Below are positions 1,054 through 12,558 of a stretch of DNA of 17,256 nt, in pieces; the first letter of the stretch is position 1, and every line of letters begins with the position of its first letter. The notes under the pieces were generated by a model. It was not told the DNA's origin. It did no database searches and worked only from the letters and a program-made list of their open reading frames with translations. The translations under genes and the position numbers were made by a program. This DNA comes from a virus (taxonomy: Duplodnaviria > Heunggongvirae > Uroviricota > Caudoviricetes). The stretch is from positions 1 through 17,256 of IMG/VR virus record IMGVR_UViG_2778261160_000003. The stretch is one strand, 5' to 3'.

Positions 1054-1078
1054 AAAAAATGCCCTCCAATAGAGAGCA

Positions 1079-1106
1079 TTTTTACTGTATGTATAACCAG
1101 TGTCAA
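1079..1106 (-). promoter_or_regulatory. Putative int promoter with a LexA-box-like CTG-N10-CAG in the spacer
   Basis: Read on the minus strand: TTGACA (revcomp of 1101-1106), 16-17 nt spacer, TAAAAA(T). The spacer contains CTGGTTATACATACAG (plus strand CTGTATGTATAACCAG, 1085-1100). It is 30-50 bp upstream of the int ATG. Confidence 0.35.
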
Positions 1107-1241: not shown

Positions 1242-1433
1242 TTATCGTGAGTTTTTAGTACAGATTTTTTTGGATTTACTAATAGTTCCATCATTGCAAA
1301 CGAATTTGCCATCAGAGGTACAGTGAGAAACACCTCCCTTTTTCCCTGAGCAGGGATAATTTCTAGCATAGGTAGCTAGTGGGTTTAATAACAAAGAACA
1401 TGACAAAACCACAAAAAATACCTTACCAAGCAT
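1242..1433 (-). CDS. Small hypothetical protein with predicted signal peptide and four cysteines
   Basis: 63-codon ORF whose ATG is preceded by GGGAGGAAATT. Hydrophobic N-terminus [20 protein letters not shown], then a Lys/Cys-containing tail. AT-rich. Sits between cI and int on the same strand. Confidence 0.45.
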
Positions 1434-1448
1434 AATTTCCTCCCGGTA

Positions 1449-2018
1449 CTATTTAACATACTTGACTGTTAAACTTATAATTTTACCAATTATTTCAATG
1501 TCTTCTATCTTACATTCGAAGGCTCTGTTTCCACCCTCGACGAAGATTCTTCCACCGGGTAAACGAGTAATGTCACGGATCGTTATTTCGCCATCAATAC
1601 TTATTACCCATTTACCATCACGTATATCATCAAATTCCTTATCACAAATAAATTCAGAATTATTATCTGTGATTACAAAAAGATTCTTGAATGCCGACGG
1701 TAGAAATTCTCTATCGAAAATATAAAAACCGTCTTCACACAAGGCCCCATCAGATAATACATATTTAGCAACTTCCATAGTATTTGTATTACCTGAAGTT
1801 TGCTTTGAACCATGCCCGGTTGTGAGCCAATTAAGCGAGGTGCCTGTTTCAAGGGCGCACTGGATTACCCATTCTGCTGGGAATGAGTCACGCATGTAGC
1901 GTGTGGCGAGTGTACTTTTAGAGATTCCTAAATGATCGCACAACGCCTGTCGAGTCTTGAATCCATAAGCTTCTACCATGCGCTCTATGGCGCCTCGTCC
2001 GCCTTTCTCCAAATTCAT
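1449..2018 (-). CDS. cI: CI-type immunity repressor (phage 186 CI-like)
   Basis: 189 codons from the ATG at revcomp 2016-2018, with GGAG about 5 nt upstream; the ORF track extends to a GTG at 2024. N-terminal HTH-like segment EAYGFKTRQALCDHLGISKSTLATRY. Size and position (between int and the divergent early operon) match 186 CI from memory. Confidence 0.75.
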   Translation of the reverse strand: MNLEKGGRGAIERMVEAYGFKTRQALCDHLGISKSTLATRYMRDSFPAEWVIQCALETGTSLNWLTTGHGSKQTSGNTNTMEVAKYVLSDGALCEDGFYIFDREFLPSAFKNLFVITDNNSEFICDKEFDDIRDGKWVISIDGEITIRDITRLPGGRIFVEGGNRAFECKIEDIEIIGKIISLTVKYVK

Positions 2019-2042
2019 GGTCACTCCAAGTGAACTTTTATC

Positions 2043-3721: not shown

Positions 3722-3948
3722 TGGCTGATGCAATGGATCTCGTACAGCAGCGCGTTGAAGAAGAACGCCAGCGCCACATCCGTGCTGCCCGTGCCAAAAC
3801 ACCGGGCGTGTCTCGCGTGCTTTGCATAGAGTGTGAAGCGCCAATTCCGCCAGCACGCCGCCGCGCCATTCCGGGAGTGCAGCTTTGCATTACCTGTCAG
3901 GAAATCGCAGAGCTGAAAGGTAAACATTACAACGGAGGTGCTGTATGA
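3721..3948 (+). CDS. TraR/DksA-family C4 zinc-finger protein
   Basis: 75 codons with CIECEAPIPPARRRAIPGVQLCITCQE (CxxC-N17-CxxC), the pattern of phage/plasmid TraR-like proteins. Start overlaps the upstream stop. Confidence 0.7.
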   Translation: MADAMDLVQQRVEEERQRHIRAARAKTPGVSRVLCIECEAPIPPARRRAIPGVQLCITCQEIAELKGKHYNGGAV

Positions 3949-4802
3949 GCACCATCCTGAAATGGGCGGGTAATAAAACCGCCATTATGCCAGAACTGAA
4001 AAAATACCTTCCTGCTGGCCCGCGACTGGTTGAACCTTTCGCGGGTTCTTGTGCTGTGATGATAGAGACGGATTACCCCAGCTATCTTGTTGCGGATATT
4101 AATCCTGATTTAATCAACCTCTATAAAAAGGTTGCTGCTGATTGCGAGGCGTTTATATCTCGTGCCAGAGCTTTATTTGAGGAAGCAAACAGGGAGGTGG
4201 CTTATTACAACATAAGGCAGGAGTTTAATTACTCCACTGAAATTACTGATTTCATGAAAGCGGTATATTTCCTGTATCTCAATCGTCATGGTTACCGTGG
4301 GTTATGTCGCTATAACAAGAGCGGGCATTTCAACATTCCCTATGGGAATTATAAAAATCCGTATTTCCCTGAAAAAGAAATTCGCAAATTTGCAGAAAAA
4401 GCCCAGCGAGCAACGTTTATCTGCGCCAGCTTTGATGAAACGCTGGCGATGTTGAAGGCGGGGGATGTGGTGTATTGCGATCCGCCTTATTACGGTACGT
4501 TTTCCGGCTATCACACTGATGGCTTCACTGAGGATGACCAGTATCACCTGGCATCCGTTCTTGAACATCGATCATCTGAAGGTCATCCGGTCATTGTTTC
4601 TAACAGTGACACATCCCTGATTCGTTCGCTGTATCGCAATTTCACTCACCACTACATCAAGGCAAAACGCAGCATCGGCGTGTCGGCTGGCAAGAGTAAA
4701 TCTGCAACAGAAATCATTGCTGTTTCCGGGGCGCGCTGCTGGGTGGGATTTGATCCTTCGCGTGGCGTAGATAGTTCTGCTGTGTACGAGGTGCGTGTAT
4801 GA
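3945..4802 (+). CDS. dam: DNA adenine (N6) methyltransferase, Dam family
   Basis: 285 codons. N-terminal KWAGNK, AdoMet-binding-like EPFAGSCAV, catalytic DPPY (CDPPYYGT). Start overlaps the upstream stop (ATGA) and its stop overlaps the A start. Confidence 0.85.
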
Positions 4803-7213
4803 GTCATGACGATATGAGCAACTCTAGCGGCTTTAACGAGGCCGCCGCATCATTTTCATGGAACGGCCCGAAAAAGGCCATTAACCCTTATCTGGACCCG
4901 GCGGAAGTTGCGCCGGAGTCTGCACTTTCAAACCTGATCACTCTGTATGCTGCCGATAACGAGCAGGAACAACTGCGCCGCGAGGCACTGAGTGAGCAGG
5001 TCTGGGAGCGTTATTTCTTTAATGAATCCCGTGATCCTGTCCAGCGCGAAATGGAGCAGGATAAGCTCATTAGCCGGGCAAAGCTGGCGCATGAGCAGCA
5101 GCGTTTTAATCCAGACATGGTCATTCTGGCTGACGTCAACGCCCAGCCTTCCCATATCAGCAAGCCGCTGATGCAACGTATTGAATACTTCAGCAGCCTG
5201 GGCAGGCCAAAGGCTTATTCCCGCTATTTGCGTGAGACGATTAAGCCATGTCTGGAACGGCTGGAGCATGTACGCGACAGTCAGCTATCCACTTCTTTTC
5301 GCTTTATGGCGAGCCATGAAGGGCTGGACGGCCTGCTGATCCTGCCTGAAATGAGTCAGGATCAGGTGAAACGCCTGTCCACCCTGGTAGCTGCGCATAT
5401 GAGCATGTGCCTTGATGCAGCTTGTGGCGATTTGTATGCCACCGATGACGTTAAGCCAGAAGAAATCCGCAAGACATGGGAAAGGGTGGCAGCAGAAACC
5501 CTGCGACTGGATGTCATCCCACCTGCGTTTGTGCAACTCCGCCGGAAAAGAAACCGCCGTAAACCCGTGCCCTATGAACTCATTCCGGGTTCGCTGGCGC
5601 GTATGTTGTGCGCCGACTGGTGGTATCGGAAATTATGGAAGATGCGTTGCGAATGGCGGGAAGAGCAGTTGCGTGCTGTCTGCCTTGTCAGCAAAAAAGC
5701 ATCTCCCTATGTCAGCTATGAAGCCGTGATGCATAAACGTGAGCAGCGCCGTAAGTCGCTGGAGTTTTTCCGTTCTCATGAACTGGTGAACGAAGACGGC
5801 GACACGCTGGACATGGAGGATGTGGTAAACGCCAGCAGCAGCAACCCTGCGCATCGCCGCAATGAGATGATGGCCTGTGTTAAAGGTCTGGAGCTTATCG
5901 CGGAAATGCGCGGTGACTGCGCCGTTTTCTACACCATCACCTGTCCGTCACGTTTCCATTCCACGCTAAATAACGGCAGGCCCAACCCGACCTGGACAAA
6001 TGCGACGGTAAGACAAAGCAGTGATTATCTGGTCGGCATGTTTGCTGCATTTCGTAAGGCAATGCACAAAGCCGGATTGCGGTGGTATGGCGTGCGGGTG
6101 GCTGAGCCGCATCATGACGGTACAGTTCACTGGCACCTGTTGTGTTTTATGCGCAAAAAAGACCGCCGCGCCATCACTGCATTACTGCGTAACTTTGCCA
6201 TCCGTGAAGACCGCGAGGAGCTGGGCAATAACACGGGGCCGCGCTTTCAGTCTGAGCTGATTAATCCGCGCAAAGGAACGCCGACAAGCTACATCGCGAA
6301 ATATATCAGTAAGAATATTGACGGGCGTGGTCTGGCTGGCGAGATCAGCAAGGAAACGGGTAAATCTCTGCGTGATAACGCTGAATACGTTAATGCCTGG
6401 GCGTCTCTGCATCGTGTTCAGCAATTCCGCTTCTTTGGCATTCCGGGGCGTCAGGCTTACCGTGAACTGCGATTGCTGGCTGGTCAGGCGGCAAGGCAGC
6501 AGGGTGACAAAAAAGCAGGTGCGCCGGTACTGGATAACCCGCGCCTTGATGCCATTCTGGCTGCTGCTGATGCTGGTTGTTTTGCCACCTATATCATGAA
6601 GCAGGGCGGCGTACTGGTTCCCCGTAAATATCACCTCATCAGAACCGCTTATGAAATCAACGAAGAGCCGACCGCCTATGGCGATCACGGTATTCGTATT
6701 TATGGCATCTGGTCACCCATTGCAGAGGGCAAGATCTGCACTCATGCAGTGAAGTGGAAAATGGTTCGTAAAGCCGTTGACGTTCAGGAGGCGGCAGCCG
6801 ACCAGGGCGCTTGCGCCCCTTGGACTCGTGGCAATAACTGTCCCCTTGCGGAAAATTTGAACCAACAGGAGAAAGATAAATCAGCTGATGGGGACACCAG
6901 AACGGACATTACCCGCATGGATGACAAGGAGTTGCACGATTACCTGCACAGTATGAGCAAAAAAGAGCGCCGGGAACTGGCAGCAAGGTTACGCCTGGTT
7001 AAGCCGAAACGGCGTAAAGACTACAAACAGCGAATTACAGATCATCAGCGACAGCAGCTCGTCTATGAACTGAAGTCCAGAGGATTTGATGGCAGCGAGA
7101 AAGAGGTCGATTTACTCCTTCGCGGTGGCAGTATTCCGTCAGGAGCAGGCCTGCGTATCTTCTATCGGAACCAGCGTTTGCGGGAAGATGATAAGTGGCG
7201 GAATCTGTATTAA
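4799..7213 (+). CDS. A: Rolling-circle replication initiator endonuclease (P2 gpA-like)
   Basis: 804 codons with an HUH-type motif TVHWHLLCF and a paired-tyrosine motif YIAKYISK (YxxxY), as in P2 A. Sits at the end of the early operon. Confidence 0.9.
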
Positions 7214-7305
7214 TTACGCGGGTTAACAATTCGTGCTCTTAATAATACCAGGCATATCAGGCTGATGAACGTAAAAAAACGTTTTACATCAGTAAGATTA
7301 TTATA

Positions 7306-7325
7306 TACTGTAAATATAAACAGTG
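7306..7325 (+). promoter_or_regulatory. LexA (SOS) box TACTGTAAATATAAACAGTG
   Basis: Perfect CTGT-N8-ACAG with an A/T-rich spacer at 7308-7323, about 40 bp upstream of the ORF starting at 7366. Confidence 0.6.
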
Positions 7326-7365
7326 GTTATGTATACAGTATTGCTTTGGTGTCATAGGAGGAAAG

Positions 7366-7554
7366 ATGCAGGACTATTTTTTGGAGTCTTTGAAGCTCCA
7401 GCGCATTGATTTTTTTCTTAAGCTTGTAGCGGCTAGTGAGTGTAGTGATGAAGAGAAGGGGCTGGCCCTGCAGTGGGTTTCTGAACTGACAGATGAACTC
7501 ATGGCAAAAATCAGAACCCACGAATACAACCGCTCAATGGATGTCATCAGCTGA
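7366..7554 (+). CDS. Small hypothetical protein, first gene of the putative SOS-controlled operon (Tum-position antirepressor candidate)
   Basis: 62 codons, strong RBS AGGAGG 4 nt before the ATG, downstream of the LexA box. In phage 186 the equivalent LexA-controlled position holds the tum antirepressor; sequence similarity not verified. Confidence 0.5.
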   Translation: MQDYFLESLKLQRIDFFLKLVAASECSDEEKGLALQWVSELTDELMAKIRTHEYNRSMDVIS

Positions 7555-7564
7555 GGTGACTTTT

Positions 7565-7798
7565 ATGCGCATTGAAATAATGATCGATAAAGAGCAAAAG
7601 ATTAGCCAGTCTACACTGGACGCCCTTGAATCCGAGCTTTACCGCAATCTGCGCCCCCTGTATCCCAAAACGGTAATTCGTATCCGCAAAGGTAGCTCTA
7701 ACGGTGTGGAACTGACCGGACTGCAACTGGACGAAGAAAGAAAACAAGTGATGAAAATTATGCAGAAGGTGTGGGAAGACGACAGCTGGCTGCATTAA
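7565..7798 (+). CDS. dinI: DinI-family protein
   Basis: 77 codons from ATG 7565, with GAGGTG 5 nt upstream. Begins MRIEIMIDKEQ and ends QKVWEDDSWLH, mirroring E. coli DinI (MRIEVTIAK ... ETWESADDW) in pattern and size. Confidence 0.7.
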   Translation: MRIEIMIDKEQKISQSTLDALESELYRNLRPLYPKTVIRIRKGSSNGVELTGLQLDEERKQVMKIMQKVWEDDSWLH

Positions 7799-7922
7799 GA
7801 AACGTTGCTGGCGTCTGAACTTGTTTCTGGCGTCAGCAAGGTTGAACAACGAGCCCTTGCGAGGCGTTAGCTCTGTAGTGCATGTCTATGCCGCATGAGA
7901 TCGCATGATCGTTTGAGGATCG

Positions 7923-7948
7923 TTTTTGCTAAGGCCCGCCAGAACTGG
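7923..7948 (+). terminator. Rho-independent terminator after the dinI-like gene
   Basis: GGCCCGCCAG / CTGGCGGGC stem with a short loop, followed by TTTTG. Confidence 0.5.
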
Positions 7949-8212
7949 CGGGCTTTTGCGTAGATCATGCAGGTGCATGAAAACCACTACATAAAGCGGG
8001 CAGGCGTGGCGGGGATACGAGCGCGCGCTGAAAAGGTTTAGCTAAATTTTTGTCGATAGGTGGTTTTAGTTGTTATACAAAAGTGTCACTGGTTTTGTTT
8101 TGAGCATTTGTGGTGCTAAAAATATTTTTTTTGGTTCAAAATTACCTTAAAAAGGTTTTTTTGGTGTATGATTGTTTGAAAAGTGGTTCGGTTTTGCCAT
8201 AAGGGTGGTTAG

Positions 8213-9295
8213 ATGATAAACGTTACAAACGAAATGCTCATTGATGTTGTCAGTGATGCTCTTACCGGGAAGAGGGAAAGTCTCCTCATGCGGTTGCGGA
8301 TTATGGCAAAAAAACTAAAAAAAGAATCTCCTGAATTAGCGGGTAAATTAGAAGATTTACTTATTAATACGGGTGGCGCAATTGCAGTCGAAAGGGCTAA
8401 TCCAGTTGTTCCTAAAATAACACCTGTTGATGCGGATACAAGACAAAAGCTGCTAGTTGAAACATATCCTGTGGTCATTGATGTTGAACCTGTTTGGCCA
8501 ACAAAAACTGATGTTCAACTGAATCGATTTGTGGCTGAGTGGGAAATGAAAGAACGCCTTTATAAAGAAGGGTTGCATCCCTCCAAATCTCTTCTTATGG
8601 GAGGACCACCCGGTGTGGGGAAGACTTTGGCTGCAAAGTGGCTCGCTTTTAAACTCGATATGCCATTGTTAACATTAGATCTCGCAAGTGTAATGAGTAG
8701 CTACTTGGGGAAAACGGGTAATAATATTAAGGCAGTCCTCAATTATGCTTCGTCATTCCCTTGTGTACTGCTTCTTGACGAATTTGATGCGATTGCTAAA
8801 AAAAGGGATGATGCAACAGATGTTGGAGAACTAAAAAGATTAGTTACAGTATTATTGCAAGCAATTGATGAATGGCCAAATACGTCTGTTCTTATAGCAG
8901 CAACTAACCATGCGGAGCTGCTTGATCCTGCTGCATGGAGAAGATTCGATCGAGTTATTGATTTTGAATATCCAACACAAGACCTAATGAGAAGATATCT
9001 CTGTTCTAAAAATATTGGAGATAGCTTATCGTACTATATTGCTACAAAACTCGAAAAAGTTTCATATGCAGTTCTTGAGAGAGCTATAAATCAAGCTAAA
9101 AGAAATGCCATTATAGAAGATATTCCTTTAAGTTCAGCTTTAATTGATGAGTTGTTAGATGGCGTGTCACTTGATGATGTTATAAAAAACATGTCAAACA
9201 ACAATGTATCACAAAGAAAAATCGCTTTAGATTTGGGGATTTCAAGGTCACAAGTACGTAAGGTTTTGACGGTTGAGGATGAAGACAATGAATGA
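8213..9295 (+). CDS. AAA+ ATPase with C-terminal HTH-like tail (cargo gene 1)
   Basis: 360 codons. Walker A GPPGVGKT (Lys codon 8621-8623), Walker B VLLLDEFD (8777-8782), sensor-1 IAATNH, second-region-of-homology-like AAWRRFDRV. C-terminal SQRKIALDLGISRSQVRKVL resembles a helix-turn-helix. AT-rich. Confidence 0.85.
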   Translation: MINVTNEMLIDVVSDALTGKRESLLMRLRIMAKKLKKESPELAGKLEDLLINTGGAIAVERANPVVPKITPVDADTRQKLLVETYPVVIDVEPVWPTKTDVQLNRFVAEWEMKERLYKEGLHPSKSLLMGGPPGVGKTLAAKWLAFKLDMPLLTLDLASVMSSYLGKTGNNIKAVLNYASSFPCVLLLDEFDAIAKKRDDATDVGELKRLVTVLLQAIDEWPNTSVLIAATNHAELLDPAAWRRFDRVIDFEYPTQDLMRRYLCSKNIGDSLSYYIATKLEKVSYAVLERAINQAKRNAIIEDIPLSSALIDELLDGVSLDDVIKNMSNNNVSQRKIALDLGISRSQVRKVLTVEDEDNE

Positions 9296-11480
9296 TAAAA
9301 ATATGCTTCTTGGCTATGGTGAAACACTAACTAACCCTGTTAAACTTAACAGAGGTGGAGGTGAAAAGAATAAACCTTACTCTTATTCAGAAAATAAACC
9401 AGTGATATCTGCTCAACTGGAAGAGTTGATTGAGGAAATTAATACCCTTCCATTGTTAGCAATGCCTGAAGGTAAGGCTGTAGCAAAATTTGTTTTGCAT
9501 CCGGCATTCTTAGCAAAAAGTTATTTTCCAGTAAGTCTTTTTGAGCGATTTTCCCTAGAAAGCATAGGCAGTAAGGCTGTAAAAGTAAAACCTAGAAAAG
9601 ATATTAAAAAAAGAGGGCGAAAAGAGGAATACACTACAGCGTGTATTTATGTTTCTGGCAAAAAAGAAAGTTTTCAATCATTCTTAGACTCTGTAAATCA
9701 AGATACCCTAACGAAAGGGCAGCAAAATGATTTTGTCACCTTAGAAAATATTTCAATACTGGAAGTTTCAGATAAAGTAAAAACGATTAATAGCAATGAA
9801 GTTATGAGTATTGAGGTCGCCTTACATACTCCTGATACAAGTTCCTCTATTGTCGATAGTTTTGAAGTTTTTGCTTCGCAAAATGGTGCTGTTATAGATA
9901 AGGCAAGAAGTATAAAAGTTAAGGGGCTAACCTTTATGCCTATTAAGGCTAGTAAAGATGTAGCTTTAAAAGTTGCAGAGTTTTCATTTCTCAGGACTTT
10001 GAGAGAACTTCCTGAATTAAGGCTAAGTGAGCCTGTTATATCACGTTCTGTGATTCAAACATCTAACCTTAGTTTACCATCTGAAGGAGCGGTAAACCCA
10101 CACATAAAGGTTGCCATATTCGATGGTGGATTGGGGATCGATGATTTCAATCCTTGGGTAACAGAGTACACTTTCAACGGTAATGCTAGTACTAATGCAA
10201 AACTTCTTTCTCATGGACAGGATGTCACCTCTACTGTGTTATTTGGTGTTCTTGGCTCTGAAACGGAAAAATTAAGTGTTCCTTATTGTAATATTGACCA
10301 TTATCGTGTACTGGATTCCAATGTTAATAACTCAGATGTCGATCTTTTTGACGTTCTGATCCGTATTAAAAGTGTATTAGAACAAAAAAAATATGATTAT
10401 ATCAATCTGAGCTTAGGACCTAGATTACCTGTTGATGACGATGACGTGCATGTGTGGACCTCAACTCTTGAGGAGATACTTGCATCAGGAGAAACACTTT
10501 GTACTGTCGCGGTTGGAAATGATGGTCAGCTGCCTGCCAAGTTAAATCGAATTCAACCACCTGCTGATTTAGTTAATGGTCTGTCAGTAGGTGCAGCAAC
10601 CTCTTTATCTGATAGTTGGGAAAGATGTTCTTACAGTTGTATTGGTCCTGGACGAAGCCCTGGCTTTGTGAAGCCTGATGGAGTTGCATTTGGAGGACAT
10701 TCTGATGAGCCATTCCAGGTATACAGCCCTATGGTTAATGGTCTTGCCCGCACTGCGGGGACTAGCTTTTCTGCTCCATTAGTCCTGAGGCAAGCAATCG
10801 CGTTAAGTGCTTCTCTAAATTACAACATTACACCACTTACGGCTAAAGCTCTGCTTATACATCATGCGGAGAGCAATAATATCAATCGTGCTGAAGTTGG
10901 TTGGGGACGATTTCCTCATGATCTTAGTGAAGTAATATTTTGTGATGATGATGAAGTTAAAGTTATATATCAAGGTACTTTAAAACCATCACAACACATG
11001 CGAGCACCTATTCCGTTTCCAGATGTACCTATGCGTGGATGTGTAAATTTAAGAGCGACATTCTGTTTTTCCAGTCCTGTTGATGCGGAACATCCTTTGA
11101 ATTATACAAGAAGCGGTCTAGAAGTAACCATGAGAAAAGGTGTTTCAGATAGTTCCGGGTTAACGTTTCCTCTTTTTAATCTAAAAAATGTTTATGCAGA
11201 TGAAAATGAGCAACGTGTTGATGCACATAAATGGGAGACTACGTTAAGAAGTGAACACAAATTTAAACCGAATGAGCTGACAAACCCATGCTTTGATATT
11301 ATCTACTATGGTAGAGACTGTGGTATGCCTATTGATGTTGACGAGTTAGAAGAACTACCATATGTTCTTGTTGTGACTTTATCTGCTGAAGAAATGCCGG
11401 ATTTATATAACCTAATTAGGCAGAAATATCAAACCTTACAGCCTATCCAAGTTCAACAGCAAATTATGTTACGTACTTAA
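9288..11480 (+). CDS. Subtilisin-like serine protease, S8 family, no signal peptide (cargo gene 2)
   Basis: 730 codons from ATG 9288; alternative ATG at 9279, ORF track starts at TTG 9273. Start overlaps the ATPase stop as ATGAATGA. Catalytic motifs in canonical order: Asp in VAIFDGG (10122-10124), His in SHGQDV (10212-10214), Asn in AVGNDG (10518-10520), Ser in GTSFSAP (10764-10766). N-terminus is hydrophilic. Confidence 0.85.
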   Translation: MNDKNMLLGYGETLTNPVKLNRGGGEKNKPYSYSENKPVISAQLEELIEEINTLPLLAMPEGKAVAKFVLHPAFLAKSYFPVSLFERFSLESIGSKAVKVKPRKDIKKRGRKEEYTTACIYVSGKKESFQSFLDSVNQDTLTKGQQNDFVTLENISILEVSDKVKTINSNEVMSIEVALHTPDTSSSIVDSFEVFASQNGAVIDKARSIKVKGLTFMPIKASKDVALKVAEFSFLRTLRELPELRLSEPVISRSVIQTSNLSLPSEGAVNPHIKVAIFDGGLGIDDFNPWVTEYTFNGNASTNAKLLSHGQDVTSTVLFGVLGSETEKLSVPYCNIDHYRVLDSNVNNSDVDLFDVLIRIKSVLEQKKYDYINLSLGPRLPVDDDDVHVWTSTLEEILASGETLCTVAVGNDGQLPAKLNRIQPPADLVNGLSVGAATSLSDSWERCSYSCIGPGRSPGFVKPDGVAFGGHSDEPFQVYSPMVNGLARTAGTSFSAPLVLRQAIALSASLNYNITPLTAKALLIHHAESNNINRAEVGWGRFPHDLSEVIFCDDDEVKVIYQGTLKPSQHMRAPIPFPDVPMRGCVNLRATFCFSSPVDAEHPLNYTRSGLEVTMRKGVSDSSGLTFPLFNLKNVYADENEQRVDAHKWETTLRSEHKFKPNELTNPCFDIIYYGRDCGMPIDVDELEELPYVLVVTLSAEEMPDLYNLIRQKYQTLQPIQVQQQIMLRT

Positions 11481-11518: not shown

Positions 11519-12133
11519 CTATGTTGATTGTGGGTCATCGTTTATTAAGTTATATTTTTCAAAATGGATAATATTAATTCCTAACCATTCATTAAATTCC
11601 TGTAATCGTTTTTGTAAAGGCATTAATTCATTTCGAACAAACACTCGACTCGCCTTCTCTACATCTCCAAATCCTCCAACATTACTTGGCATAATCCCCA
11701 TCATTTGCGGCGGCACACGGTGTGCCGCCATCATGTCGTCCCGGCTCACGTTCTTGATATTCAGAAACTCATCCTTCGCCGCGACTTCTGACAACGGGAT
11801 GATCTGAAGCCCGTCCTTTTTGCCGTTAGGCGAGTACATAAACAGGTTGCGGAAGTTGCCAGGGCCTTTGGCGCTTTTCATCGCATTGCGGAGGTTGTTC
11901 ACATCCTCCTGGTTCTGCGCGGCATCGGTCATGTACATGATGAAGCCTGCATGACTGCCGTTAATATAATACTTCCGGCGGAACAGCGTGGCGGACTCGT
12001 TGAGCAGGGCTGACGGAATGGCAGAAAGATAACCTGGCAGGCCGTAGATCTCCTGGTTGATGTCAGGTTCCATCAGATGAAAAATGCTGCCTTTCGTGAA
12101 CTGATACGGCTGGGTTGTCATACCGTATTGCAC
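11519..12133 (-). pseudogene. Q: Portal protein (P2 Q-like) C-terminal fragment
   Basis: 204-codon minus-strand ORF with portal-like sequence, in the position and orientation of P2 Q. Far shorter than an intact portal; its 5' part is replaced by tail tube sequence on the opposite strand. Confidence 0.6.
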
Positions 12134-12558
12134 AAACCAGTAGGTATCCAGGTCTAACCCGCGTCGGGTGTATTTTGCCAGTGGATGTGGATCTGGGGCT
12201 TGATGACAGTGCGCTGGACACAGAATTTTCCATTGGTGGTACTGAATTGCTGCTGTTTAAGCAGATGGGCAAAGCCACGGTGGATGGCATCCAGTTGCGC
12301 TTTACCGGCTCTATCCAGCGTGACGATACCGGGGAAGTGCAGGCCGTGGAGCTTGTGGTGCGTGGACGTCACAAAGAAGTGGATTCCGGTGAGTGGAAGA
12401 CGGGCGAAAGCAACACCACCAAAGTGACCAGTACCAACAGCTACGCGAAGCTGACCATCAATGGTGAGGTGCTCTATGAAGTGGACCTTATCAACATGGT
12501 GGAAATTGTGGACGGTGTGGACCTGATGGAAGCGCACCGCAACGCCCTCGGCCTCTGA
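12115..12558 (+). pseudogene. FII: Major tail tube protein (P2 FII-like) C-terminal fragment
   Basis: ORF contains PVDVDLGLDDSALDTEF ... RFTGSIQRDDTGE ... INMVEIVDGVDLMEAHRNALGL, matching my memory of the P2 FII C-terminal half. Recognisable similarity probably begins near 12170. No sheath or upstream tail genes are present. Confidence 0.6.

What the first reader, a model, noticed from the sequence alone, without database searches (positions are those of the whole stretch)
7283..7798. LexA-boxed two-gene SOS module (small ORF plus dinI-like) after the A gene, as in inducible 186-type phages
A perfect CTGT-N8-ACAG box (7308-7323) sits about 40 bp upstream of a 62-codon ORF with a strong RBS, followed by a DinI-family gene. 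Phage 186 carries its LexA-repressed antirepressor tum with a dinI-like ORF at this genomic position. The small ORF here is much shorter than I recall Tum being and I cannot confirm similarity, so it may be a different SOS-induced antirepressor or regulator. Despite losing its structural genes, the remnant would retain DNA-damage-responsive control that could regulate the adjacent cargo or the immunity region.
Basis: partly seen in the sequence, partly recalled or inferred. Interest (0 to 1): 0.5.

Follow-up and report, generated by a model that had tools for sequence, protein, structure and literature searches.

The report
Split tum antirepressor–DinI SOS operon
This is the known DNA-damage switch of Fels-2/186-type prophages, a LexA-repressed operon encoding a small antirepressor (TumA) and a DinI homologue, sitting intact in a defective E. 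coli prophage; it is real but ordinary.

Summary
A high-scoring LexA box (7306-7325) precedes a 62-codon ORF (7366-7554) and a DinI-family gene (7565-7798), just after replication gene A of a degraded Fels-2/186-like prophage lying between rcdA and ybjL.

The module is already known. It is 97-98% identical in DNA to Fels-2 STM2728 plus STM2726.1. It has the same layout as PSP3 tumA/tumB, whose record links tumA to UV induction.

The ORF is short because tum is split here. Profile comparisons align its residues 5-43 with residues 5-43 of 186 Tum (hhalign E 7e-8, in-register PHROG cross-hits). The DinI gene matches the C-terminal half of Tum (41% identity).

The module occurs in 1144 of 5426 complete E. 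coli genomes.

Three points go beyond the finding:
- The operator is a double, one-base-overlapping LexA box, built like the ColE1 colicin operator.
- A second strong LexA box fills the spacer of the int promoter (1083-1102).
- An identical TumA is paired with at least 17 different CI repressor types.

SOS control of the neighbouring IetAS cargo is not supported, because a strong intrinsic terminator (7931-7957) lies between them.

The parts
7283..7288 (+). -35 element TTTACA of the p95-like SOS promoter
   Evidence: It is conserved as TTTACA in all nine Fels-2-type promoters fetched and invariant in 46 unique IMG/VR promoter variants. It corresponds to the annotated 186 p95 -35, TTCACA. The generic promoter scan did not call it, because the -10 is non-consensus.
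7304..7311 (+). -10 region: TATACT with a 15-bp spacer, or TACTGT with a 17-bp spacer as annotated for 186 p95
   Evidence: In the 186 record the p95 -10 is TACTGT, which is the first six bases of the LexA site. The same geometry is seen here. The transcription start has not been determined.
7306..7325 (.). LexA box 1, TACTGTAAATATAAACAGTG, overlapping the -10
   Evidence: 23.9 bits. It is nearly invariant in 79 IMG/VR operators.
7321..7340 (.). LexA box 2, CAGTGGTTATGTATACAGTA; its core GTGG-N8-ACAG (7323-7338) shares one G with box 1
   Evidence: It scores 15.5 bits. The architecture matches the ColE1 site CTGTATATAAAACCAGTGGTTATATGTACAG (NC_001371 5063-5093). Among 46 promoter variants the half-sites show 4 changes over 8 positions, against 49 changes over the 8 spacer positions.
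7356..7361 (+). Ribosome-binding site AGGAGG of tumA
   Evidence: Read directly from the sequence and conserved in relatives.
7366..7554 (+). tumA: 62-aa antirepressor homologue, equivalent to Fels-2 STM2728 and the PSP3 TumA class
   Evidence: It matches phrog_698 at 3.6e-38, and the N-terminal half of 186 Tum hits the same profile in register at 5.9e-6. hhalign gives probability 94.6%, E 7e-8. It is 98.4% identical to the Fels-2 protein and 88.7% to the SopEPhi protein. Against diverged relatives, 17-20 codons differ synonymously and 7-10 non-synonymously. AlphaFold2 predicts a two-helix hairpin, pLDDT 91.6.
7553..7559 (+). Ribosome-binding site GAGGTGA of the dinI-like gene, overlapping the tumA stop codon TGA (7552-7554)
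   Evidence: Read directly from the sequence.
7565..7798 (+). tumB: 77-aa DinI-family protein
   Evidence: Pfam DinI 6.6e-23. It is 41% identical to 186 Tum residues 71-145. It matches E. coli DinI structure 1GHH at E 2.7e-6.
7801..7843 (+). Stable hairpin just after the dinI-like stop codon, with no U tract
   Evidence: -23.5 kcal/mol, z -4.68. It ends the conserved block 7214-7870. Other phages carry cargo inserted just downstream of that block, at about 7870-7877.
7931..7957 (+). Intrinsic terminator closing the SOS operon: GC-rich stem followed by UUUU
   Evidence: -23.4 kcal/mol, z -4.92. It lies in the second conserved block, 7877-8028, which in Fels-2, SopEPhi and others follows the cargo placed at the position of 186 orf97.
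1449..2024 (-). 186-type CI repressor, the inferred target of TumA
   Evidence: Pfam Phage_CI_repr 2.8e-33 plus Phage_CI_C 2.7e-27. The S24 peptidase match is below cutoff. The same CI type is paired with the identical TumA in 29 of 70 IMG/VR loci.
1083..1102 (.). Third LexA box, inside the spacer of a TTGACA-N16-TAAAAA promoter in front of int (true start ATG at 1052-1050, minus strand)
   Evidence: It scores 23.5 bits. It is conserved in phages 4LV2017, 813R9 and ESSI2_ev129 and present in about 40 of 80 IMG/VR loci. It is inferred to be part of the same SOS circuit.

Best explanation
This is the SOS operon of a Fels-2/186-type P2-like prophage (Peduoviridae) in its split form, tumA then tumB.

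**Uninduced state (inferred).** LexA dimers occupy two overlapping boxes that cover the -10 and start region of a p95-like promoter, keeping the operon silent.

**After DNA damage (inferred from 186 and its relatives).** RecA-stimulated LexA self-cleavage opens the promoter. TumA, a 62-aa two-helix hairpin, binds the non-cleavable 186-type CI repressor and stops it binding its operators, which turns on the early lytic operon. The co-transcribed DinI-like TumB binds RecA filaments and modulates the SOS signal.

**Operon boundaries and second target.** The transcript most likely ends at the terminator at 7931-7957. A second LexA box in the int promoter would supply integrase at the same time.

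**Consequence in this remnant (inferred).** Head genes and most tail genes are deleted. The outcome would be derepression, excision and replication without virions, and possibly action in trans on related prophages.

**Shown here:** the boxes, genes, homologies, conservation and terminator. **Inferred:** LexA binding, the TumA-CI interaction and SOS induction.
For: - **LexA boxes.** Their significance is shown. They are conserved at the orthologous position in 14 reference phages and 79 IMG/VR loci.
- **Promoter geometry.** It matches the annotated 186 p95 promoter and LexA site.
- **TumA homology.** The N-terminal half of 186 Tum hits TumA's profile in register (PHROG cross-hits), and hhalign gives E 7e-8.
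- **DinI homology.**
- **Identity to known phages.** The module is 97-98% identical to Fels-2 and to phage vB_EcoM-813R9.
- **PSP3 annotation.** tumA is described as 'similar to 5' end 186 tum; UV induction of prophage', and tumB is the dinI-like gene.
- **Literature.** Fels-2 and PSP3 have tum split in two, with the upstream gene carrying antirepressor activity in PSP3 (PMC3121763). The SopEPhi Tum antirepressor is induced by the SOS response (PMC9827884).
- **Target present.** An intact 186-type CI with no significant S24 peptidase domain.
- **Real coding gene.** Purifying selection on the ORF.
- **Operon end.** Terminator.
Against: - No experiment exists on this locus.
- Plain BLASTP finds no similarity between the 62-aa protein and 186 Tum. 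Homology rests on profiles built from few sequences.
- Pfam, NCBIfam, PADLOC and PDB have no entry for it.
- The -10 is non-consensus and the generic promoter scan called nothing.
- Box 2 alone is only borderline against shuffles (15.5 bits against a 95th percentile of 15.2 for the window maximum).
- My weight matrix uses sites recalled from memory.
- The antirepressor activity of the PSP3/Fels-2 small protein is known to me only through a personal communication cited in PMC3121763 and a GenBank note. The primary paper (Bunny et al. 2002) was not available.
Confidence: 0.85

Rival explanations
1. The SOS promoter also drives the adjacent IetAS defence cargo (8213-11480) by read-through, so that DNA damage boosts defence expression.
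For: In 186 the p95 transcript reads partly through terminator t95a into orf97, a cargo-like gene whose expression blocks 186 infection (record annotation). IetAS is on the same strand and downstream.
Against: A strong intrinsic terminator (7931-7957, z -4.92) lies in a conserved block. In Fels-2 the orf97-like gene, and in SopEPhi and others the cargo at that position, sits upstream of this block, so the terminator is the t95b equivalent. IetAS is inserted after this block, at 8028. A 185-bp AT-rich stretch precedes ietA and could hold its own promoter. The in-operon cargo slot (about 7870-7877) is empty here.
Confidence: 0.12
2. The module is an intact-looking but functionally inert relic. 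It is transcribed on SOS induction, but TumA does not act on the resident CI, or derepression has no consequence in the remnant.
For: The prophage has lost its head genes and most tail genes. No sequenced phage in the collection has this CI at more than 56% identity. The TumA-CI pairing is untested.
Against: TumA is 100% identical to that of isolated phages. The same CI type is the commonest partner of this exact TumA in IMG/VR (29 of 70). CI, apl/cox, cII, A and int ORFs are intact. The operator half-sites are conserved.
Confidence: 0.1
3. The 62-aa protein is not an antirepressor. It could be a partner or regulator of the DinI-like protein or RecA, or an unrelated small SOS protein.
For: No curated family names it, and PGAP calls it hypothetical. 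A single TumA sequence goes with many CI types, which is unusual for a specificity-determining antirepressor. Some relatives carry a TumA-like gene without a DinI gene, so the reverse dependence is not excluded.
Against: It is homologous in register to the N-terminal half of 186 Tum, the half that lies outside the DinI-like region; the 186 record says Tum inhibits CI DNA binding. PSP3 tumA is annotated for UV induction. ESSI2-type phages keep the TumA-like gene with a LexA box but have no DinI gene, which argues that TumA acts on its own.
Confidence: 0.04

Closest known systems
Fels-2 STM2728 + STM2726.1, and PSP3 tumA/tumB (split tum operon)
   Same: - Same position after gene A.
- Same two-gene order.
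- 97-98% DNA identity to Fels-2, and 98.4% TumA identity.
- Same double LexA operator as Fels-2.
- PSP3 tumA and tumB are annotated as the 5' and 3' parts of 186 tum.
   Different: - Fels-2 carries an orf97-like gene between the dinI-like gene and the terminator; the window does not.
- PSP3 TumA belongs to the 186-like sequence class (20% identity to the window protein) and has a single LexA box.
- The window copy sits in a defective prophage with a different CI (46% identity to Fels-2 CI).
Coliphage 186 Tum and the p95 SOS operon
   Same: - LexA site overlapping a TACTGT -10.
- Location after gene A.
- N-terminal region homologous to TumA and C-terminal half homologous to the DinI gene.
- 186-type CI as partner.
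   Different: - 186 has one fused 146-aa protein with internal starts; here there are two genes in different frames.
- 186 has a single LexA box, against a double box here.
- 186 has orf97 inside the operon.
- TumA is only about 23% identical to the 186 N-terminal half, and BLASTP finds nothing.
SopEPhi Tum (Salmonella)
   Same: The 62-aa ORF (orf10) followed by a DinI-like gene (orf11) is 88.7% identical in TumA and has the same double operator. SOS-driven Tum expression has been linked to SopEPhi induction in the inflamed gut (PMC9827884 citing Diard 2017).
   Different: SopEPhi is an intact, transferable phage with a different CI (47% identity) and different cargo. I could not check which ORF that study calls tum.
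ColE1 and other colicin operators with two overlapping SOS boxes
   Same: Same CTGT-N8-MCAG/GTGG-N8-ACAG layout with a one-base overlap. 29 of 35 bases are identical between the ColE1 site and window 7306-7340 by my own hand count, not a tool result. [quoted passage not shown]
   Different: The double box controls a prophage antirepressor operon, not a colicin gene. Binding of two LexA dimers here is inferred only.
Gifsy prophage dinI-antirepressor operons (gfoA, gftA)
   Same: A LexA-repressed operon combines a DinI homologue with a small antirepressor that binds a non-cleavable repressor. Antirepressors act in trans across prophages (PMC3121763).
   Different: The gene order is reversed (dinI first). 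The prophage is lambdoid, and both the antirepressor and repressor families are unrelated.

Membership tests
Tum/TumA antirepressor of 186-type P2-like phages | Sequence homology to the N-terminal (non-DinI) region of 186 Tum | tested here: met
   The window ORF matches phrog_698 at 3.6e-38. 186 Tum residues 1-70 hit phrog_698 at 5.9e-6 in register (6-44 to 6-44), and both proteins hit phrog_8554 and phrog_1993. hhalign gives probability 94.6%, E 7.1e-8, aligning residues 5-43 with 5-43. Pairwise BLASTP alone is negative.
Tum/TumA antirepressor of 186-type P2-like phages | Transcribed from a LexA-repressed promoter | tested here: inconclusive
   At sequence level the feature is met: high-scoring LexA boxes overlap the -10 with the same geometry as annotated 186 p95. 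LexA binding and SOS induction were not measurable here.
Tum/TumA antirepressor of 186-type P2-like phages | Located after replication gene A in a genome with a 186-type, non-self-cleaving CI | tested here: met
   Gene A is at 4799-7213. CI is at 1449-2024 with PF07022 plus PF16452, and the S24 match is below cutoff.
Tum/TumA antirepressor of 186-type P2-like phages | Binds CI and prevents operator binding; required for SOS induction | not testable with these tools
   Known for 186 Tum (Shearwin et al. 1998, as cited in PMC3121763) and stated for PSP3 tumA in its GenBank note.
DinI family | Match to the DinI domain above the curated threshold, and to the solved E. coli DinI | tested here: met
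   PF06183 scores 81.3 bits against a cutoff of 24.2. 1GHH matches at E 2.7e-6 over the full length, including the C-terminal W-E-x-D-(D/S)-W motif. The NCBIfam equivalog for chromosomal DinI is below cutoff (42.7 bits against 111), so this is a phage paralogue rather than the host dinI.
DinI family | Binds the RecA filament and modulates co-protease activity | not testable with these tools
   Inferred from family membership. The 186 record annotates the DinI-like short Tum forms as modulating SOS induction.
Colicin-type double SOS operator | Two LexA boxes whose 16-bp cores overlap by one base | tested here: met
   The pattern CTGT-N8-MCAGTGG-N8-ACAG matches the window operator (7308-7338), all nine Fels-2-type loci and ColE1. 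Box 2 half-sites are conserved while its spacer varies.
Colicin-type double SOS operator | Occupancy by two LexA dimers giving tight, late-induced repression | not testable with these tools
   Stated for colicin operators in PMC2994835. No data exist for tum operators.

The most novel reading that the evidence does not exclude
TumA of the Fels-2 group may be a generic antirepressor rather than an immunity-specific one. One invariant 62-aa sequence is paired with at least 17 CI types that are 38-100% identical to the window CI. The residues shared by those CI types are concentrated in the N-terminal DNA-binding domain. If this is right, a defective remnant like this one, with its colicin-style double LexA operator and a LexA-gated int promoter, could on DNA damage derepress and mobilise any co-resident Fels-2-like prophage of different immunity.
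Probability: 0.35. Interest if true: 0.45.

Novelty: already known. Interest (0 to 1): 0.2.

Why it matters
The module itself adds nothing new. It is the textbook route by which 186/Fels-2/SopEPhi-type prophages sense DNA damage, and about a fifth of complete E. coli genomes carry it.

Its practical value is in annotation. The 62-aa gene is still labelled 'hypothetical protein' by PGAP and in most phage records. It has no Pfam or NCBIfam family, although it is very probably the prophage's induction trigger.

Three side observations could be worth a small experimental study of prophage cross-talk and of how tightly induction is gated:
- the double operator;
- the LexA-controlled int promoter;
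- one TumA sequence serving many CI types.

The two-slot layout also matters for reading P2-type defence hotspots. Cargo inserted at about 7870-7877 lies inside the SOS operon. Cargo inserted after 8028, such as IetAS here, lies outside it.

Tried and rejected
**Searches that found nothing**
- Pairwise BLASTP of the 62-aa protein against 186 Tum gave no alignment. Profile methods then resolved the question.
- Pfam, NCBIfam, PADLOC and PDB sequence searches gave nothing meaningful for the small protein.
- An Rfam scan of 7200-8300 gave only a chance miRNA hit, so no known RNA element lies in the leader or the 3' region.
- The generic sigma-70 scan found no promoter in 7100-8300. I rejected this as evidence of absence, because the experimentally annotated 186 p95 has the same weak TACTGT -10.
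- Searches for a published LexA-controlled int promoter in P2-like phages found nothing relevant. They were not exhaustive.

**Errors and unavailable sources**
- My first double-box pattern had the wrong spacing and found nothing. It was corrected.
- My first translation call used a wrong start for the DinI gene.
- A first local BLAST mixed up records because one file holds several loci. It was redone.
- Bunny et al. 2002 and the Christie and Calendar P2 review were not held in the library.

**Ideas considered and dropped**
- That the TumA type simply co-varies with whole CI. Rejected: TumA is 84-100% identical where CI is 37-63% identical, and 17 CI clusters share an identical TumA.
- That the window is identical to strain ChlosBP-23-1. 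Only the module is (100%). That strain has a different deletion.

I did not run the very large protein searches, because the answer did not depend on them.

Full report
**Context**

The window is E. coli chromosome carrying a degraded Fels-2/186-like (Peduoviridae) prophage next to ybjL and ybjM. In a related strain the prophage sits between rcdA and ybjL.

| Feature | Coordinates | Evidence |
|---|---|---|
| int | true ATG at 1052, minus strand | |
| 63-aa ORF | 1242-1433 (-) | |
| 186-type CI | 1449-2024 (-) | |
| cox/apl-like | 2144-2365 | position as in related phage records, |
| cII | 2392-2907 | |
| dam | 3945-4802 | |
| replication gene A | 4799-7213 | |
| the module under study | 7283-7960 | see below |
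| IetA / IetS defence pair | 8213-9295 / 9273-11480 | |
| portal fragment | 11519-12133 (-) | |
| tail-tube fragment | 12115-12558 (+) | |

The portal fragment abuts the tail-tube fragment, so the head genes and most tail genes are deleted.

**Observation**

CTGTAAATATAAACAG is at 7308-7323. The 20-mer at 7306-7325 differs from the LexA consensus at 3 positions, a match never seen in 200 shuffles.

I built a weight matrix from E. coli LexA sites recalled from memory. It gives the box 23.9 bits, inside the range of the training sites. The best shuffle score was 18.8.

AGGAGG (7356-7361) precedes the ATG at 7366. The ORF encodes 62 residues. The next gene (7565-7798) is a DinI-family protein. 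Its GAGG ribosome-binding site overlaps the tumA stop codon.

**What it is**

The 747-bp region is 97-98% identical to several sequenced phages, including Fels-2. There the two genes are STM2728 (hypothetical) and STM2726.1 (DinI family, 'similar to TumB of PSP3').

The PSP3 record names the equivalent pair. tumA is 'similar to 5' end 186 tum; UV induction of prophage'. tumB is 'similar to dinI and 3' end of 186 tum'.

Lemire et al. state that 186 Tum looks like an antirepressor fused to DinI. They add that Fels-2 and PSP3 have the coding region split in two, and that in PSP3 the upstream gene carries the antirepressor activity (PMC3121763).

The window proteins fit this picture:
- The DinI gene is 41% identical to 186 Tum residues 71-145.
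- BLASTP finds nothing between the 62-aa protein and Tum. Profiles do. The window protein belongs to phrog_698, and the first 70 residues of 186 Tum hit that profile at 5.9e-6 in exact register. There are reciprocal hits to phrog_1993 and phrog_8554.
- A small profile-profile comparison gives probability 94.6%, E 7e-8, aligning residues 5-43 with 5-43.

The ORF is under purifying selection, with 17-20 synonymous against 7-10 non-synonymous codon differences to diverged relatives. It is predicted with high confidence to be a two-helix hairpin.

Tum is 146 aa because it contains the DinI part. TumA is the other half.

**Promoter and operator**

In the 186 record the p95 promoter is TTCACA-N18-TACTGT, and the LexA site starts at the -10. 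The window has TTTACA (7283-7288), then TATACT/TACTGT (7304-7311), with box 1 in the same place.

Immediately downstream is a second box, with core GTGG-N8-ACAG at 7323-7338. It shares one G with box 1. This is the layout of the ColE1 operator: CTGTATATAAAACCAGTGGTTATATGTACAG in NC_001371. By my hand count, not a tool result, 29 of 35 bases are identical between that site and window 7306-7340.

All nine Fels-2-type tumA promoters fetched have the double box. 186, PSP3, Yersinia 06.16-2 and the ESSI-2 types have one.

In 46 distinct promoter variants from 79 IMG/VR loci:

| Region | Changes | Positions |
|---|---|---|
| box 1 half-sites | 4 | 8 |
| box 1 spacer | 3 | 8 |
| box 2 half-sites | 4 | 8 |
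| box 2 spacer | 49 | 8 |
| 20 nt downstream of box 2 | 33 | 20 |

This argues that the second site is functional. By score alone it is borderline.

**Operon end and the cargo**

Two hairpins follow the DinI gene. One has no U tract (7801-7843). The other is a classic intrinsic terminator (7931-7957).

Comparison with relatives shows two conserved blocks, 7214-7870 and 7877-8028. Fels-2 (orf97-like gene), SopEPhi (orf12-13) and others carry cargo between the blocks. That is the position of 186 orf97, inside the SOS operon. This slot is empty in the window.

IetAS is inserted after 8028, beyond the terminator. This is the known gpA-gpQ hotspot of P2-like phages (PMC9122126). SOS control of IetAS is therefore unsupported, though read-through cannot be excluded. 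In 186 the first terminator is only partial.

**Mechanism**

I commit to the 186 model at about 0.85 confidence:
1. LexA holds the operon off.
2. DNA damage removes LexA.
3. TumA inactivates CI by binding it. The CI here has the 186-type domains and no significant S24 peptidase domain.
4. TumB/DinI tunes RecA activity.

All binding and induction steps are inferred.

**Prevalence**

The module is found in 1144 of 5426 complete E. coli genomes. PGAP annotates it as 'hypothetical protein' plus 'DinI-like family protein'.

**Beyond the finding**

*A LexA-gated int promoter.* A third LexA box (1083-1102, 23.5 bits) fills the spacer of a TTGACA-N16-TAAAAA promoter directly upstream of the true int start. 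It is conserved in phages 4LV2017, 813R9 and ESSI2_ev129 and present in about half of 80 IMG/VR loci.

At 15 bits or more over the reference phage loci, the matrix hit only tum promoters, int promoters and the known ColE1 colicin operator. At 17 bits or more over 1.17 Mb of IMG/VR loci, it hit those two promoter classes plus six sites elsewhere in the loci. I found no paper describing a LexA-gated int promoter in P2-like phages.

*One TumA, many CI types.* TumA is far more conserved than its presumed target. It is 84-100% identical among phages whose CI are 37-63% identical. Among 70 IMG/VR loci encoding the identical 62-aa TumA there are 17 CI clusters at 80% identity.

Invariant CI positions are concentrated in the N-terminal domain, 25% there against 4% in the rest. 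This suggests that TumA recognises a conserved surface of the DNA-binding domain and could act across immunity types, as shown for Gifsy antirepressors (PMC3121763). The sample was selected for identical TumA, and this reading is untested.

**Verdict**

The feature is real and correctly read in outline, and it is already known. Interest is low (0.2). Three modest side leads remain.

Noticed in passing
window 1083-1102 (promoter 1075-1106, minus strand; int ATG 1052-1050): A third strong LexA box (TACTGTATGTATAACCAGTG, 23.5 bits) fills the spacer of a TTGACA-N16-TAAAAA promoter directly in front of int. It is conserved in phages 4LV2017, 813R9 and ESSI2_ev129, and present in about 40 of 80 IMG/VR loci. 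It suggests SOS-gated integrase expression. I found no published description. The 376-aa int ORF from 1131 is an over-extension.
   Followed up: partly
window 7308-7338: The tum operator is a double LexA box with a one-base overlap, the same architecture as the ColE1 colicin operator (NC_001371 5063-5093). It is specific to Fels-2-type tumA promoters; 186, PSP3 and ESSI-2 types have a single box. Box 2 half-sites are conserved while its spacer is the most variable stretch of the promoter.
   Followed up: yes
window 7366-7554 versus 1449-2024; loci L020-L099: An identical 62-aa TumA is paired with at least 17 CI clusters (at 80% identity) in 70 IMG/VR loci. The shared CI residues are concentrated in the N-terminal HTH domain. 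No sequenced phage in the collection has the window's CI at more than 56% identity.
   Followed up: partly
window 7870-7877 and 8028: There are two separate cargo insertion points after the dinI-like gene. One lies inside the SOS operon, at the position of 186 orf97; it is empty here and filled in Fels-2, SopEPhi, ST437phi4.1 and ST13phi12.1. The other lies after the operon terminator and holds IetAS here. The two hotspot papers I checked do not mention tum, dinI or SOS.
   Followed up: partly
window 8213-11480: An IetA (AAA ATPase, PADLOC 6.7e-84) and IetS (S8 peptidase, 1.8e-48) anti-phage pair occupies the gpA-gpQ hotspot. Both are below the NCBIfam equivalog cutoffs, so this is a diverged variant.
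   Followed up: partly
window 11519-12558: This is the deletion junction of the remnant. A 204-aa portal fragment (minus strand) abuts, with a slight overlap, a 147-aa tail-tube fragment (plus strand). The related strain ChlosBP-23-1 has a different deletion (portal, terminase and scaffold kept, then a gpD fragment), so the prophage decayed independently in different lineages.
   Followed up: partly
window 1242-1433 (-): A 63-aa ORF lies between cI and int. It has a hydrophobic N-terminus and several cysteines ([32 protein letters not shown]...), so it looks like a secreted or lipoprotein-type accessory (moron-like) gene. PGAP annotates it as hypothetical. Its presence separates int from the cI transcript.
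   Followed up: no
window 9337-9352: A second perfect CTGT-N8-ACAG (CTGTTAAACTTAACAG) lies inside the ietS coding sequence. It scores below 8 bits with the LexA matrix and is most likely chance.
   Followed up: yes
IMG/VR loci among L020-L099, 0.5-3 kb downstream of tumA: A few loci have additional LexA-like boxes of 17 bits or more in the cargo region downstream of the module (for example TGCTGGACATACATACAGTA). This hints that some hotspot cargo has its own SOS control.
   Followed up: no
L007 and L013 (ESSI2_ev040, ESSI-2): These phages keep a LexA-boxed TumA-like gene (41-49% identity) but have no DinI gene after it. The antirepressor half can therefore stand alone.
   Followed up: no
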